Positions 24,424-31,589 of a stretch of DNA of 64,000 bases are shown here, one piece after another. The notes under the pieces are model-generated. The model worked only from the letters and a program-made list of their open reading frames with translations, was not told the DNA's origin and made no database searches. The stretch is taken from positions 773 to 64,772 of the forward strand of contig CAYOLL010000011.1 in assembly GCA_964404765.1 (NCBI GenBank). Reading direction: 5' to 3'. Position numbers and translations under genes: made by a program. The stretch comes from an uncultured Gemmatimonadota bacterium (lineage in GTDB: Bacteria; 4572-55). Position 1 is the stretch's first letter. Each line of letters begins with the position of its first letter.

Positions 24424-24470
24424 ACGAAAAATTATACCCTTATCTGCGGGTCATGTCAAGGAAATTTACT
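24424..24470 (+). repeat. Direct repeat R1 (AAAAATTATAC-N7-CTGCGGGTCATGTCAAGGAAATT), partner at 27586-27630
   Basis: About 40-nt near-identical direct repeats, 3.16 kb apart, delimiting a mosaic segment. Confidence 0.7.
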
Positions 24471-24711
24471 GCACAAAATGATCGTGACGGTTTGTGGTTA
24501 TTGCAGTTTCTTGACCCGTTGTTGAGTCAAGTCAATCAGGGTTTGGTAGCGGGCAGCGGTTTGGGCCAGTTTGTTGGGTTCGCGGTAGGCGGCGGACATT
24601 GAGCCCGGCAAATTCTTTGTAAGAAAATGGTTTAGTCTTGACAGAACCGAAAGATCAGCTTTGATTATAATGCACCATGCACCATCTAAAGTTACGTTAA
24701 AAGGTGAAAAT

Positions 24712-25065
24712 ATGCCAACAGTTTTAAGAGTCGGCCCATATCGCTTTCATTTTTACTCGGATGAAGGTAAAGAGCCCCACACATTCATGTTGAAACTTCC
24801 GATGGCGAGTGCAAATTTTGGCTCGATCCAATTCGGCTTGCTCGCAACATGGGAGTCTCCCCACACGAGATCCGTAAAATTGACCGACGGACGGATTATC
24901 CGATTTCCAGCGAATCGGTTTAAACGGCTCAAAGCAGCTACAAATGAACAGTTAAAAGACGTTACGATTCGGCTGAACGGCTATGCTCTGCGCTGGGAAT
25001 CTATTGACGAAGACATCACCATACCGGGCGTAGTTGCCGGCAATTTTGAACTCTCGCCCGAATAA
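24712..25065 (+). CDS. DUF4160/DUF2442-like small protein (possible fusion)
   Basis: RBS AAGGTG before ATG 24712. The N-terminal [23 protein letters not shown] resembles DUF4160. The C-terminal half ([45 protein letters not shown]) resembles DUF2442. Confidence 0.45.
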
Positions 25066-25346
25066 GCATTTTTCCCTATCTTTTGGCATGGCTTGCAGTT
25101 CCTTGCCCCGTTGTTGGGTTAGCTGAGCCAGAAAATCCCGCTATTGGTCAGCGGCACATTGGATCACAATGAGAGTGAGACGATGGTGGTGGCGGGGGTG
25201 GAGGTGATGCGAAAAACTTGCCAATGATGGTGGCGTGACGATGGATTTTGAAATATTATTAGGTTGAAAACAACCACGAGCTGATTATATTTACCAAAAG
25301 GATTGGGTTGAAGTGTCAACCGTGAACCCAAGAACGGAGGTGCGCT

Positions 25347-26198
25347 ATGCGCTTTCTGGATGTGCGAACCGATTATGCTTTTAAAAAGGTCTTTGGCTCC
25401 GAAGAGTCAAAACCGATTTTGATCAGCTTTTTGAATGGGATAATTGACTTTGTTGATGGCAGCAAAATCACCGACCTGACCATCGTTGACCCGTATCAGA
25501 TTCCGCTGATCAAGGGCATGAAGGATTCTTATGTGGATGTAAAAGCCATCCTGTCATCAGGCGGGCGAGTCATTATCGAGATGCAAGTGCTTAATTTTGA
25601 AGGTCTCGAAAAGCGCATTTTGTATAACGCCGCCAAAGCCTATTCCACCCAGTTAATGAAAGCGGAAGATCATACCCTGGAGCCAATTATTGCCATTACC
25701 ATTACGGACTTTGTCATGTTTTCCGACATTCAGCCGGTGATCACCTATTTCAAGCTGCGCGAGAAAGAAAAGTTGCTGACCTATAGCGACGACATTGAGT
25801 TGATTTTTGCCGAACTGCCGAAATTTACCAAAACCGAAGCCGAATTGCAGACGATCACGGACAAATGGCTTTATTTTGTCAAAAATGCCGGCAGCCTGGA
25901 ATATGTGCCGGCGGCGATGGCTGAGCCGGAACTGCGGCAGGCTTTTGAGATTGCCAATACCGCCGGATTGAGCGAGGCGGAGTTGGGAGAACAATTTAGG
26001 CGGCGCGATTTCATTATGGTGCAAAAGGGCATTGAACGAACCCATCGAAAACAACTGGAAAAGGCGCAGCAGGAGGCACAACAGGCCAGGCAAGAAGCCA
26101 ATAAACTGACGGCGCTGAAGATGAAAGCTAAGGGGTTAGACATGGCTTTGATTGCCGAAGTAACCGGCCTGACCCGCGAAGTGATAGAAACATTATGA
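25347..26198 (+). CDS. Rpn-family PD-(D/E)XK recombination-promoting nuclease / putative transposase (YhgA-like)
   Basis: The hallmark N-terminus MRFLDVRTDYAFKKVFGSEE and overall length fit the TIGR01784 / Rpn family. Confidence 0.8.
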   Translation: MRFLDVRTDYAFKKVFGSEESKPILISFLNGIIDFVDGSKITDLTIVDPYQIPLIKGMKDSYVDVKAILSSGGRVIIEMQVLNFEGLEKRILYNAAKAYSTQLMKAEDHTLEPIIAITITDFVMFSDIQPVITYFKLREKEKLLTYSDDIELIFAELPKFTKTEAELQTITDKWLYFVKNAGSLEYVPAAMAEPELRQAFEIANTAGLSEAELGEQFRRRDFIMVQKGIERTHRKQLEKAQQEAQQARQEANKLTALKMKAKGLDMALIAEVTGLTREVIETL

Positions 26199-30283: not shown

Positions 30284-30343
30284 TGTTGTTTTCCTCTTGC
30301 TTGAATAATACTTTTTGTCTGAATGGCTTGCCCCCGCGTTCGA

Positions 30344-30946
30344 TCATGCCGCTTCCCTGCGATAAGCAGCTTTTGGCGACAGCAGCCCGACTTCTCTGGC
30401 AAAAACATCGAGACGGTTGGCGCTGCCCATGCCCAAAAAATGCCCTACCAGTTTTCGGAGTTTCGAGTATTGAACTCCCGCCACACGCAGCAAAGCTTTG
30501 GCGTCAAAATCATCTTTTGGCTCGCCGGAGACCATTTTCATGGTAATCAAATGATGCAGACCGACGACCGGAATCGCCTCATTAAAAAACACCACATCCT
30601 GCCGGGCTTCCTGAATGGCTTTGCTAAATAAACGATCCAGCCCGTCCACCCGTCGGTCAATAAAATCAACAAAAAAGTCCGGTTCACGAACCGCCACGCC
30701 GCCAATGGATAGCTGGTAAACTTGATAGCCTCTGGTTTTGAGCGCGGCTTCAATCGAAGCAATTTTTGTAGTCAAAATGGCGATGTCCACATCTTTGGTA
30801 AACTGGTGTGCGTCTTCGGGCAGATAAAGCCAGGTGGCAACCCGGCCGATCAGGGCAAATTCGGTTATGCCAAGATCGTTGAGCAGTTGGACGGCGGCCT
30901 TAAGCGAGGGATTTGGATCAAACGACGGGATTGCTTTGACAACCAT
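30344..30946 (-). CDS. Hypothetical protein, possible nucleotidyltransferase-fold (200 aa), first gene of a two-gene operon with the 880-aa P-loop protein
   Basis: IGRVATWLY...TKDVDIAIL is weakly reminiscent of the NTase GS/DxD motifs. 60-bp gap to the downstream gene on the same strand. Confidence 0.35.
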   Translation of the reverse strand: MVVKAIPSFDPNPSLKAAVQLLNDLGITEFALIGRVATWLYLPEDAHQFTKDVDIAILTTKIASIEAALKTRGYQVYQLSIGGVAVREPDFFVDFIDRRVDGLDRLFSKAIQEARQDVVFFNEAIPVVGLHHLITMKMVSGEPKDDFDAKALLRVAGVQYSKLRKLVGHFLGMGSANRLDVFAREVGLLSPKAAYRREAA

Positions 30947-30980
30947 TCTATTATATACCTCAATAGTTCTGATCTGCGTT

Positions 30981-31589
30981 CTATTTTTTTGAGTCGAATG
31001 GAGTATCGGGGTCAGAGGCGTTAGGCAGCGCTTTAGAACTTGCGGCTAACGGCGTTTCATGGTCGGATAGCGGCGCCGCCGGCTGTTCCTCAAACCAGAT
31101 CAGCACAAACAGAATCGCCACGCCGACCGAGATCGCAATATCCGCCACGTTGAAAATGGGCCAGCGGGTCATATAATAGCCGTCAAAAGCCAACGGGCCG
31201 ATCTGAAAAGGAGCAATGACAATATCGGGAAACTCAAAGTCGAAAAAATCGACTACTTTGGCCATGTAGATTCGGTCGGCCAAATTGCCCAACGCGCCGC
31301 CCAGAATCATACCCAGGCTAAGCGTGCTCCACAGATGCTGCTGGCCGTGCGTTACGTAAAGATACAGCAGCAGGCCGATCACAAAGATCGACACCAGCGG
31401 GTACGGAAATTGATGACCCAGCGAGATGCCAAAGGCGGCATTGGGATTGTAGATAAAGGTCAGCCGGAAAAAGTCGCCCCATACTTCAATCGACTCGCCG
31501 ATTTCGAAGCGGGCTTTGATGATGAATTTGGTAAGTTGATCGAGCGCCAGCACAAATACAGCCGTGCCGACAAAGAGCGAATGTCGCAT
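30981..31589 (-). CDS. lspA: Lipoprotein signal peptidase (signal peptidase II)
   Basis: MRHSLFVGTAVFVLALDQLTKFIIK...FNVADIAISVGVAILFV; four TM segments and the conserved NxGAAF/FNVAD motifs. Confidence 0.85.
   Translation of the reverse strand: MRHSLFVGTAVFVLALDQLTKFIIKARFEIGESIEVWGDFFRLTFIYNPNAAFGISLGHQFPYPLVSIFVIGLLLYLYVTHGQQHLWSTLSLGMILGGALGNLADRIYMAKVVDFFDFEFPDIVIAPFQIGPLAFDGYYMTRWPIFNVADIAISVGVAILFVLIWFEEQPAAPLSDHETPLAASSKALPNASDPDTPFDSKK

What the first reader, a model, noticed from the sequence alone, without database searches (positions are those of the whole stretch)
24424..31589. Mosaic segment bounded by ~40-bp direct repeats, next to a two-gene P-loop operon of unknown type (candidate defence locus)
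**What the sequence shows**
- Direct repeats R1 (24424-24470) and R2 (27586-27630) bracket 3.2 kb. The bracketed genes are a DUF4160/2442 gene, an Rpn PD-(D/E)XK nuclease, an orphan hicB, a 231-aa hypothetical, and a 375-bp AT-rich island.
- Inside the bracket there are three degenerate copies of one gene's 3' end (…LTQQRxKELQ*, at about 24480-24560, 25070-25160 and 26203-26249).
- Immediately beyond R2 lies an operon of a 200-aa NTase-like protein and an 880-aa P-loop NTPase. It has GSFGSGKSH Walker A and LLIDELSEF Walker B motifs, which I could not place in a known defence family.
- lspA and the xisHI insertion follow.

**Inference**
The mobile-element context and the P-loop + small-partner architecture are typical of anti-phage systems.
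Basis: partly seen in the sequence, partly recalled or inferred. Interest (0 to 1): 0.6.

Follow-up and report, generated by a model that had tools for sequence, protein, structure and literature searches.

The report
Chance neighbours: BrxC-like ATPase, MenT-like toxin
The supposed new two-gene anti-phage operon is two unrelated accessory genes that sit side by side only in this genome: a shortened, partner-less relative of the BREX ATPase BrxC and a MenT1-like nucleotidyltransferase. The "direct repeats" nearby are two copies of a perfect promoter.

Summary
The sequence features are real. The 49-nt direct repeat (24422-24470 / 27581-27629, 88%) is far above chance. On the minus strand each copy is a perfect TTGACA-17-TATAAT promoter, and similarity stops at the promoter's edges.

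The 880-aa P-loop protein can be placed. It belongs to the DUF6079 / BrxC-PglY_N family. Its fold matches the BrxC N-terminal ORC/Cdc6-type AAA+ module, and Walker A and B are intact. It is one of only five known ~870-aa short forms. These form a single clade and lack the last ~470 residues of their ~1340-aa relatives. No PglZ, PglX or BrxB gene is in the window.

The 200-aa protein is a MenT1-like (AbiEii superfamily) nucleotidyltransferase with the catalytic residues conserved and no adjacent antitoxin.

The pairing is not conserved. No NTase homologue lies within 10 kb of 80 related ATPase loci or beside three other short forms, and no ATPase lies beside five NTase homologues.

The best reading is a variable islet of independent accessory genes, not a defence operon. 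The short solo BrxC-like form is a minor new variant of a known kind. Its function is unknown. Interest is low to moderate.

The parts
24422..24470 (-). R1: 49-nt repeat copy. On the minus strand it is a perfect sigma-70 consensus promoter (TTGACA, 17 nt, TATAAT). It faces the MITE-like element and mgtC (24072-23428).
   Evidence: Repeat (D4); 12/12 promoter match; two copies only; limits of the repeat.
27581..27629 (-). R2: second copy of the 49-nt promoter cassette. It starts 12 nt after the stop codon of the 880-aa gene and faces the AT-rich stretch and the 231-aa gene.
24498..24611 (-). 37-aa ORF or gene fragment ending ...LTQQRVKKLQ* (copy A of the short repeated 3'-end fragment).
   Evidence: The 27-nt, 89% match to 25093-25119 is (D13) and is above chance.
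25093..25147 (-). Copy B of the fragment, with an in-frame stop (...DQ*RDFLAQLTQQRGKELQ...). It links copies A and C.
   Evidence: (D13, D16).
26203..26249 (-). Copy C of the fragment. It lies in frame directly after the stop of the 70-aa HicB-like ORF (AV*SQQRHLLAQQVLEAS*).
   Evidence: (D16).
24712..25065 (+). DUF2442-domain ORF. The N-terminal part is possibly a DUF4160 remnant, but Pfam did not detect it.
   Evidence: PF10387, 54 bits.
25347..26198 (+). Rpn-family PD-(D/E)XK recombination-promoting nuclease.
   Evidence: PF12784, 162 bits; TIGR01784, 146 bits against a cut-off of 52.
26250..26462 (-). 70-aa weakly HicB/UPF0150-like ORF with no hicA partner.
   Evidence: 1wv8, E 0.0023; UPF0150, E 0.089, below threshold.
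26510..27205 (-). 231-aa protein of unknown family with a good Shine-Dalgarno sequence. Only two homologues are known.
   Evidence: Searches find no family. One search finds two homologues. One search places the 34%-identical one inside a type I cas operon.
27206..27580 (.). AT-rich (27% GC) 375-bp stretch between R2 and the 231-aa gene. No Rfam match and no unusual RNA fold.
   Evidence: (z = -1.44).
27641..30283 (-). 880-aa short-form DUF6079 / BrxC-PglY_N family ATPase of the ORC/Cdc6 AAA+ type. It lacks the C-terminal ~470 residues of its ~1340-aa relatives.
30032..30058 (-). Walker A motif GSFGSGKSH (residues 76-84).
   Evidence: translation; invariant G76, G79, G81, K82, S83, H84.
29495..29521 (-). 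Walker B motif LLIDELSEF (residues 255-263).
   Evidence: translation; invariant D258, E259.
30344..30946 (-). 200-aa MenT1-like (AbiEii/DUF1814 superfamily) nucleotidyltransferase. The residues T50, D52, K137 and D148 align with the MenT1 catalytic residues.
   Evidence: Residue roles come from PMC11375011.
30981..31589 (-). lspA (signal peptidase II). It is a housekeeping gene, co-directional with the NTase gene and 35 nt upstream of it.
   Evidence: PF01252, 129 bits.

Best explanation
The region between mgtC and lspA is a variable patch of independently acquired accessory genes, not one system.

1. **The 880-aa protein.** It is a stand-alone, shortened member of the DUF6079 / BrxC-PglY family. 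Shown: it has an ORC/Cdc6-type AAA+ ATPase module with intact Walker A and B, followed by roughly 400 further residues, and it lacks the last ~470 residues of its closest ~1340-aa relatives. Inferred from BrxC: it binds and hydrolyses ATP, self-associates in an ATP-dependent way, and binds DNA through the post-ATPase domains. In BrxC the missing part is a coiled-coil arm. There is no PglZ, PglX or BrxB partner and no recognisable effector domain.
2. **The 200-aa protein.** It is a MenT1-like nucleotidyltransferase. Shown: fold match and conserved catalytic residues. Inferred: it adds nucleotides to tRNA 3' ends and so blocks aminoacylation. It occurs as a solitary gene here and in other genomes.
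3. **The adjacency.** lspA, the NTase gene and the ATPase gene are co-directional with gaps of 35 and 60 nt, with a Shine-Dalgarno sequence before each and no terminator between them. They are therefore probably co-transcribed here (inferred). This arrangement is unique to this genome and reflects chance juxtaposition.
4. **R1 and R2.** They are two copies of a 49-nt core promoter cassette reading leftward. R1 faces the mgtC leader. R2 faces the AT-rich leader of the 231-aa gene. Between them lie an Rpn nuclease and decayed toxin-antitoxin-type fragments.
For: **Family placement of the ATPase.**
- PF19557 scores 88 bits against a cut-off of 23.
- PADLOC BrxC and SspC models give partial hits.
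- The AF2 model has pLDDT 84.
- The top Foldseek PDB hits are the BrxC N-terminal structures 9zll and 9zdx (E 2.5e-13 to 6e-12), followed by ORC/Cdc6.
- Walker residues are invariant across 15 homologues.

**Short form.**
- Five proteins of 858-880 aa share 50-55% identity; the next relatives are ~1340 aa at ~40%.
- The short forms make a single clade in a neighbour-joining tree.
- They fall into one of 295 clusters at 50% identity.

**No BREX partners.**
- All 28 window ORFs of 180 aa or more that are not overlapped by a longer ORF were scanned, and none is PglZ, PglX or BrxB.

**The pair is not conserved.**
- NTase hits in 0 of 80 related loci with 10-kb flanks.
- Short-form contexts show no NTase.
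- NTase contexts show no DUF6079 gene.

**Conserved contexts in relatives are different.**
- 52 loci of the ~1650-1870-aa class carry a ~334-aa TPR gene, in most of them immediately upstream of the ATPase gene.
- The CSSED10-310 solo forms are syntenic with cyclophilin, infA and atpB.

**NTase.**
- Its profile hits MenT1 8an4 at E 2e-7, with FTKDVD, AMK and PKDDFD aligned to the MenT1 catalytic residues.
- The AF2 model has pLDDT 91.
- Foldseek gives TM 0.65-0.70 to MenT1.
- 11 of 24 homologues hit Pfam AbiEii.

**Promoters.**
- Both repeats score 12/12.
- The repeat is limited to 49 nt.
Against: - An apparently catalytically intact MenT-like toxin with no antitoxin gene needs some neutralising factor, and the downstream ATPase cannot be excluded as that factor.
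- The tight co-directional spacing is what an operon looks like.
- Both gene families are linked to defence.
- No genome closely related to this one could be found, so a lineage-specific two-gene system cannot be ruled out.
- Absence of co-occurrence was tested only in relatives at 55% identity or less for the ATPase and 66% or less for the NTase.
- Promoter function of R1 and R2 rests on a consensus match only.
- That the missing C-terminus is a coiled-coil arm is inferred from the description of BrxC. It was not modelled here.
Confidence: 0.75

Rival explanations
1. A genuinely new, lineage-specific two-gene defence module. The BrxC-like ATPase senses foreign DNA and holds the MenT-like NTase in check, replacing a MenA/AbiEi antitoxin. 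On infection it releases the NTase to block translation (abortive infection).
For: - The genes are co-directional with a 60-nt gap, a Shine-Dalgarno sequence and no terminator.
- The NTase catalytic residues are intact.
- No antitoxin ORF fits in the 35-nt gap to lspA.
- Both families belong to defence-linked superfamilies.
Against: - No co-occurrence in 80 loci, 3 short-form contexts and 5 NTase contexts.
- NTase homologues are solitary elsewhere too, so the lack of an antitoxin is a property of the family, not of this locus.
- The short ATPase is also solitary in its three other readable contexts.
Confidence: 0.1
2. R1 and R2 are attL/attR-like scars. The 3.1-kb segment between them, or its ancestor, was inserted by recombination at a 49-nt site that happens to be a promoter, duplicating it.
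For: - Direct repeats flank a patch of accessory and decayed genes that includes an Rpn recombination-promoting nuclease, with GC as low as 0.27.
- A second insertion 4 kb away has the same anatomy: xisI plus a xisH fragment, flanked by a 96-nt, 93% duplication of the 3' end of the TonB-receptor gene.
Against: - No integrase, transposase or recombinase other than Rpn lies in the segment.
- The copies differ at 6 of 49 positions, 4 of them in the 3' part of the promoter spacer.
- The repeat ends coincide with the core promoter rather than with any known att or inverted-repeat structure.
- The motif was not found in the metagenome or viral collections.
- This reading is compatible with the main explanation and does not exclude it.
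Confidence: 0.3
3. The 880-aa gene is a decaying remnant of a BREX or DUF6079 locus, a truncated pseudogene on its way out.
For: It lacks ~470 C-terminal residues relative to its nearest relatives and has no partner genes.
Against: - Five orthologues from different metagenomes keep the same ~860-880-aa length and end point, at 50-55% identity over the full length.
- They retain invariant Walker A and B and many other invariant residues.
- The AF2 model is confident throughout.
- This indicates an old, selectively maintained truncation.
Confidence: 0.05
4. The 200-aa NTase is not a tRNA-targeting toxin. It is a small-molecule (antibiotic-type) or other housekeeping nucleotidyltransferase.
For: - It is solitary in five sampled homologue contexts and in the window, with no conserved antitoxin.
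- Foldseek also hits ANT(2'')-Ia and LnuA at E 1e-4 to 1e-3.
- The window protein itself has no Pfam AbiEii hit.
Against: - MenT1 is clearly the best match by sequence profile (E 2e-7) and by fold (TM 0.65-0.70, against 0.45-0.57 for the resistance enzymes).
- The MenT1 catalytic set T/D/K/D is conserved.
Confidence: 0.2

Closest known systems
BrxC / PglY, the AAA+ ATPase of BREX systems (structures 9zdx, 9zll; PMC13326643; bioRxiv 10.1101/2025.10.09.681413)
   Same: - It has an N-terminal ORC/Cdc6-type AAA+ module with Walker A and B.
- BrxC structures are the best fold matches in the PDB.
- Partial sequence-profile matches cover Walker A and the region after Walker B.
- Further domains follow the ATPase module.
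   Different: - It scores 78 bits against the NCBIfam BrxC cut-off of 400, and 35 against 1700 for PglY.
- It is 880 aa rather than 1200-1300 aa and lacks the C-terminal part. In BrxC that part is a 250-500-residue coiled coil.
- No PglZ, PglX, BrxA, BrxB or BrxL is in the window, and none appears as a conserved neighbour in 80 related loci.
DUF6079 family proteins (Pfam PF19557, now named BrxC-PglY_N, plus DUF6079_2nd), long forms of ~1340 and ~1650-1870 aa
   Same: - It is a true family member (88 bits against a cut-off of 23).
- It is 40% identical over its whole length to the ~1340-aa solo forms of Poribacteria, KSB1 and Caldithrix.
- Like those forms, it has no conserved partner gene.
   Different: - It lacks the last ~470 residues, including a conserved Cys-containing motif seen in the long forms.
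- The ~1650-1870-aa class has a conserved upstream TPR partner that is absent here.
- The HerA/FtsK-centred seven-gene system that contains a DUF6079 protein is not present in the window.
MenT1 (Rv0078A) of the MenAT1 toxin-antitoxin system, AbiEii/DUF1814 superfamily (8an4, 8an5; PMC10435456, PMC11375011)
   Same: - Similar size (200 against 196 aa).
- Same fold (TM 0.65-0.70).
- The profile match has E 2e-7.
- The motifs FT(K/R)DVD, AMK and P(K/Q)D..D, which carry MenT1 residues T39, D41, K137 and D152, are conserved.
   Different: - Only 20-23% identical.
- No MenA-like or AbiEi-like antitoxin gene is adjacent, either here or beside five homologues.
- The window protein is below Pfam AbiEii detection.
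Rpn (YhgA-like) recombination-promoting nucleases / PDDEXK_2 'transposase_31'
   Same: The 283-aa ORF inside the bracket is a full-length member (TIGR01784, 146 bits against a cut-off of 52).
   Different: It is not linked to the ATPase or the NTase. Its role in creating the mosaic segment is speculation. An Rpn gene also lies next to one NTase homologue; this was seen once and may be coincidence.

Membership tests
BREX system (BrxC/PglY as core ATPase) | N-terminal ORC/Cdc6-clade AAA+ ATPase with Walker A and B | tested here: met
   Foldseek top hits are BrxC 9zll and 9zdx (E 2.5e-13 to 6e-12), followed by ORC/Cdc6. Walker motifs are invariant.
BREX system (BrxC/PglY as core ATPase) | Full-length match to the curated BrxC or PglY model | tested here: not met
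   NCBIfam BrxC 78 bits against a cut-off of 400. PglY 35 bits against 1700. PADLOC BrxC models match only partial stretches.
BREX system (BrxC/PglY as core ATPase) | Co-located PglZ and a PglX methyltransferase (BrxB in type 1) | tested here: not met
   All 28 window ORFs of 180 aa or more that are not overlapped by a longer ORF were scanned with Pfam, and none is PglZ, PglX or BrxB. No such conserved neighbour cluster appears in 80 related loci.
BREX system (BrxC/PglY as core ATPase) | C-terminal extended coiled-coil arm of 250-500 residues | tested here: not met
   The protein ends at residue 880, where the ~1340-aa relatives continue for ~470 residues. That the missing part is a coiled coil is taken from the BrxC description and was not modelled here.
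Pfam PF19557 (DUF6079 / BrxC-PglY_N) | Score at or above the gathering threshold | tested here: met
   88.4 bits against 23. The precomputed annotation lists PF19557 plus PF26383.
MenT / AbiEii nucleotidyltransferase toxins | Pol-beta-type NTase fold with the conserved catalytic Thr/Asp, Lys and Asp residues | tested here: met
   AF2 pLDDT 91. TM 0.65-0.70 to MenT1. The profile alignment places T50, D52, K137, D145 and D148 on MenT1 T39, D41, K137, D149 and D152 (roles).
MenT / AbiEii nucleotidyltransferase toxins | Match to Pfam AbiEii (PF08843) | tested here: inconclusive
   The window protein has no hit. 11 of 24 aligned homologues hit AbiEii and 10 hit DUF6036.
MenT / AbiEii nucleotidyltransferase toxins | Cognate antitoxin gene (MenA/AbiEi) immediately adjacent | tested here: not met
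   There is a 35-nt gap to lspA upstream and a 60-nt gap to the ATPase gene downstream. Five homologue contexts show no conserved partner.
MenT / AbiEii nucleotidyltransferase toxins | Growth inhibition through tRNA 3'-end nucleotidylation | not testable with these tools
   Needs expression and tRNA assays.
Integrated mobile element bounded by att-type direct repeats | Integrase, recombinase or transposase encoded within the bracket | tested here: not met
   The bracket holds DUF2442, Rpn, a HicB-like ORF and a 231-aa unknown only.
Integrated mobile element bounded by att-type direct repeats | Empty site with a single repeat copy in a related genome | not testable with these tools
   No closely related genome was found. 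The best ATPase relative is 55% identical, and the repeat motif is absent from the metagenome and viral collections.
   0 of 80 loci. 0 of 3 other short-form contexts. 0 of 5 NTase contexts.

The most novel reading that the evidence does not exclude
Partner-less DUF6079 proteins, meaning the ~1340-aa solo clade and its ~870-aa derivative without the C-terminal arm, could form a BREX-independent, single-protein DNA-surveillance or defence function. In this genome the short form could have captured a MenT-like NTase as its effector, with the ATPase acting as the toxin's regulator in place of an antitoxin.
Probability: 0.1. Interest if true: 0.6.

Novelty: new variant of a known kind. Interest (0 to 1): 0.3.

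Why it matters
As proposed, it does not matter much. The 'operon' is a one-off juxtaposition, and both proteins fall into known superfamilies.

Three smaller points remain.
1. BrxC-like ATPases exist as solitary genes, and a rare clade has lost the whole C-terminal part. That clade is five sequences, in one of about 295 family clusters. If these proteins are functional, which their conservation suggests, the AAA+ core plus the following domains can work without the arm and without PglZ or BrxB. This bears on what BrxC does inside BREX.
2. MenT1-like NTases with an intact catalytic set occur widely as solitary genes with no antitoxin. This raises the question of how, or whether, they are kept in check.
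3. A 49-nt perfect promoter has been copied exactly from edge to edge. This is a tidy example of promoter duplication in a variable islet.

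Tried and rejected
- **RNA element in or near the repeats or the AT-rich stretch.** Rfam at E up to 1 over 22.5-33 kb gave only two chance miRNA-hairpin hits on the MITE-like palindromes. The 384-nt leader folds no better than shuffles (z = -1.44). 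Rejected.
- **Repeat extends into the transcribed region.** A MAFFT alignment suggested this. Local alignment with shuffling shows the downstream similarity is at chance: 225 of 500 shuffles score as high. Rejected.
- **Repeat is part of a widespread element.** The pattern TTGACATGACCCGCAG-N7-TATAAT gave 0 hits in metagenome contigs and viral contigs.
- **The 231-aa protein is the detached C-terminus of the ATPase.** BLASTP against a long form shows no similarity. Rejected.
- **CRISPR link.** A 34%-identical homologue of the 231-aa protein lies inside a type I cas operon, but the window has no CRISPR array and no cas genes. Left as an observation.
- **Small antitoxin upstream of the NTase.** Small ORFs next to two homologues (47 aa and 87 aa) have no counterpart in the window. 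The 87-aa ORF looks like part of a different pair.
- **Effector domains in the long forms.** Pfam finds nothing beyond DUF6079 in the 1350-1824-aa forms.
- **Plasmid or phage carriage.** There is one weak plasmid hit at 23% identity and no viral structural match at E of 0.001 or better.
- **Context of the 74%-identical homologue of the 231-aa protein (P0214).** It is not on record.

Full report
**1. Checking the observation**

The direct repeat is 49 nt long, at 24422-24470 and 27581-27629, and 88% identical. A repeat of that quality never appeared in shuffled versions of the 10-kb region. A pattern built from it finds only these two copies in the 64-kb window, with 0 expected.

Between the copies lie the following features.
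- A DUF2442 ORF at 24712-25065. The suspected DUF4160 N-terminus is not detected by Pfam.
- A full-length Rpn PD-(D/E)XK nuclease at 25347-26198.
- A 70-aa ORF at 26250-26462 that is only weakly HicB/UPF0150-like.
- A 231-aa protein with no family match at 26510-27205.
- A 375-bp stretch of 27% GC at 27206-27580.

The 'three copies of a gene 3' end' are real short similarities above chance, but they form a chain. Copy A matches copy B over 27 nt. Copy B matches copy C over 26 nt. A and C do not overlap. Copy C continues the reading frame of the HicB-like ORF past its stop codon. The fragments therefore look like leftovers of HicB-type gene ends.

**2. What the repeats are**

Read on the minus strand, each copy is a perfect sigma-70 consensus promoter: TTGACA, a 17-nt spacer, then TATAAT. 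These are the only two 12/12 matches in the region.

A multiple alignment seemed to extend the similarity downstream. Local alignment with shuffling shows nothing significant beyond the 49 nt. The duplicated unit therefore runs from about 11 nt upstream of the -35 hexamer to about 9 nt downstream of the -10 hexamer. It is a core promoter copied from edge to edge.

R1 points at a short ORF, a MITE-like palindromic element and mgtC. R2 begins 12 nt after the stop codon of the 880-aa gene and points at the AT-rich stretch and the 231-aa gene. That gene has a good Shine-Dalgarno sequence.

Further checks on the repeats and the AT-rich stretch gave the following.
- No Rfam family matches.
- The AT-rich leader has no unusual fold.
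- The motif does not occur in the metagenome or viral collections.
- No integrase or transposase lies between the copies.

Whether the duplication arose through an insertion event cannot be decided without a related genome. A similar anatomy 4 kb away makes recombination-driven insertion plausible. There, xisI plus a 3' fragment of xisH is flanked by a 96-nt, 93% duplication of the end of the TonB-receptor gene.

**3. The 880-aa protein**

It can be placed in a known family.
- Pfam assigns it to PF19557 (DUF6079, renamed BrxC-PglY_N) at 88 bits against a cut-off of 23.
- PADLOC BrxC and SspC models hit parts of it.
- NCBIfam BrxC and PglY models match far below their cut-offs: 78 against 400 and 35 against 1700.
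- A profile of 15 family members hits the solved BrxC chains only around Walker A and the region after Walker B.
- An AlphaFold model built from that alignment is confident (pLDDT 84).
- Its best PDB matches are the BrxC N-terminal AAA+ structures 9zll and 9zdx (E 2.5e-13 to 6e-12), then ORC/Cdc6 and RdrA.

The literature describes BrxC as an ORC/Cdc6-type AAA+ module followed by wHTH, alpha+beta and wHTH domains and a 250-500-residue coiled-coil arm. It self-associates in an ATP-dependent way, binds DNA, and binds BrxB:PglZ.

**4. A short, solitary form**

Homologue searches show a small family of about 295 clusters at 50% identity among 1.84 billion representatives. It has three length classes.
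- The window protein and four others are 858-880 aa and 50-55% identical to each other.
- The next relatives, at about 40% identity, are ~1340 aa. They come from Poribacteria, KSB1, Caldithrix and CSSED10-310.
- More distant relatives are ~1650-1870 aa.

The short forms align over their whole length and simply stop where the long forms continue for ~470 residues. They form one clade in a neighbour-joining tree. The truncation is therefore old and maintained, not decay.

All 28 window ORFs of 180 aa or more that are not overlapped by a longer ORF were scanned. None is PglZ, PglX, BrxA, BrxB or BrxL.

**5. Is the NTase-ATPase pair a system?**

I fetched 80 related loci from species-representative genomes with 10-kb flanks, called ORFs and clustered them.
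- No NTase homologue occurs in any of the 80 loci.
- The three other short forms with readable context have different neighbours. Two follow fructose-1,6-bisphosphatase. One lies between a secreted beta-helix protein and YjeF.
- Five NTase homologues examined in their own contigs never have a DUF6079 neighbour.

The conserved contexts that do exist are different.
- 52 loci of the ~1650-1870-aa class carry a ~334-aa TPR gene, in most of them immediately upstream of the ATPase gene and often overlapping its start.
- The CSSED10-310 solo forms sit in a stable housekeeping neighbourhood of cyclophilin, infA, atpB and lpxC.
- The remaining solo forms have heterogeneous neighbours.

That condition is met.

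In this genome lspA, the NTase gene and the ATPase gene are co-directional with gaps of 35 and 60 nt. Each has a Shine-Dalgarno sequence and there is no terminator between them. Co-transcription is likely here, but that is a local accident.

**6. The 200-aa protein**

- Its homologues are sometimes named AbiEii/AbiGii toxin family.
- 11 of 24 aligned homologues hit Pfam AbiEii, although the window protein itself does not.
- The family profile hits MenT1 of M. tuberculosis (8an4) at E 2e-7.
- The AlphaFold model (pLDDT 91) superposes on MenT1 and MenAT1 with TM 0.65-0.70. That is clearly better than its match to antibiotic nucleotidyltransferases.
- The alignment puts FTKDVD, AMK and PKDDFD on the MenT1 residues T39, D41, K137, D149 and D152. 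Mutation of T39, D41 and K137 abolished MenT1 phosphorylation, and D41A, K137A and D152A abolished its NTase activity.

By homology it should extend tRNA 3' ends and block aminoacylation (PMC10435456). No antitoxin gene is adjacent here or beside the homologues. Either the family is regulated differently, or it is not toxic by itself.

**7. Most likely explanation and rivals**

The best-supported reading (about 0.75) is a variable islet holding independent accessory genes:
- a duplicated promoter;
- decayed toxin-antitoxin-type fragments and an Rpn nuclease;
- an orphan 231-aa gene;
- a solitary BrxC-like ATPase without the C-terminal arm;
- a solitary MenT1-like NTase.

The rivals are as follows.
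- **A lineage-specific ATPase-regulated NTase defence pair (about 0.1).** The operon-like spacing and the missing antitoxin keep it alive. The complete lack of co-occurrence weakens it.
- **R1 and R2 as insertion scars (about 0.3).** This is compatible with the main reading.
- **A decaying pseudogene (about 0.05).** Five conserved full-length orthologues contradict it.
- **An NTase with a non-toxin role (about 0.2).**

**8. Novelty and verdict**

Both proteins belong to known superfamilies, and the proposed system is not conserved. What is modestly new is the ~870-aa solitary DUF6079/BrxC-like form. It is a new variant of a known kind with unknown function. Interest is 0.3.

The most novel reading not excluded is that solitary DUF6079 proteins are a BREX-independent surveillance function that here controls a MenT-like effector. 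I give it about 0.1 probability. It would merit about 0.6 interest if true.

Noticed in passing
window 31720-31815 and 32360-32455 (with 31815-32362 between): A 96-nt direct repeat (93%) flanks intact xisI (31815-32150, minus strand) and a 3' fragment of xisH (Pfam XisH positions 83-133 of 134). Copy 2 is the true 3' end of the TonB-dependent receptor gene (...YYYPAAGRNGYGSVTVGF*). Copy 1 is a duplicate of those 32 codons after xisI. This is an insertion scar that cuts xisH.
   Followed up: partly
window 23082-23250, 24092-24245, 32799-32897: MITE/REP-like palindromic elements with AAACCCTTAGGGTTT cores. The first two flank mgtC (23428-24072, minus strand) as 35-nt, 91% inverted repeats. Rfam gives only chance miRNA-hairpin hits on them.
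   Followed up: no
L097 5001-5696 (and L098 3707-4402): The only distant homologue (34% identity over the full length) of the window's 231-aa orphan protein sits inside a type I CRISPR-Cas operon of a Bacteroidetes MAG. The gene order is cas6, small TPR, the 231-aa homologue, a 604-aa gene, cas7, a 258-aa gene, cas3. The window has no cas genes and no CRISPR array.
   Followed up: partly
loci L031-L092 (for example L033 4319-10851, Neomoorella stamsii DSM 26217): The ~1650-1870-aa class of DUF6079 proteins is preceded by a ~334-aa TPR protein gene in 52 of the 80 loci, usually overlapping its start. The pair is seen across Halanaerobiales, Syntrophomonadaceae, Desulfobacterales, Acidobacteriota and others. 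I found no description of this conserved two-gene unit in the papers read.
   Followed up: partly
loci L023, L026, L029, L030, L032, L037, L047, L051: In CSSED10-310-type genomes the ~1340-aa solo DUF6079 gene keeps a fixed position next to cyclophilin, infA, a PaaI-like gene, atpB and lpxC, despite deep divergence of the protein. This is unusual stability for a supposed defence gene.
   Followed up: partly
window 48-9289 and 16638-17849: A run of conflict-type genes: nSTAND1-WD40 (48-2552), TIR-WD40 (2861-5086), guanylate cyclase-AAA_16-TPR (5387-9289) and a KAP-like P-loop NTPase (16638-17849).
   Followed up: no
window 39066-40163 and 44964-51299: A phage-tail-sheath-like gene (possibly a contractile injection system) and a 2111-aa protein with peptidase C13 and dockerin domains.
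   Followed up: no
window 60389-61217: A 126-nt tandem repeat (6.6 copies, 82% matches) inside the LVIVD-repeat / type IX secretion-sorting protein gene 60050-61483. It corresponds to the protein's LVIVD repeats.
   Followed up: no
L093/L094 3001-4448: One NTase homologue (P0141, 50% identity) lies tail-to-tail with an Rpn PDDEXK_2 gene, the same family found 4 kb from the NTase in the window. This is a single instance and may be coincidence.
   Followed up: no
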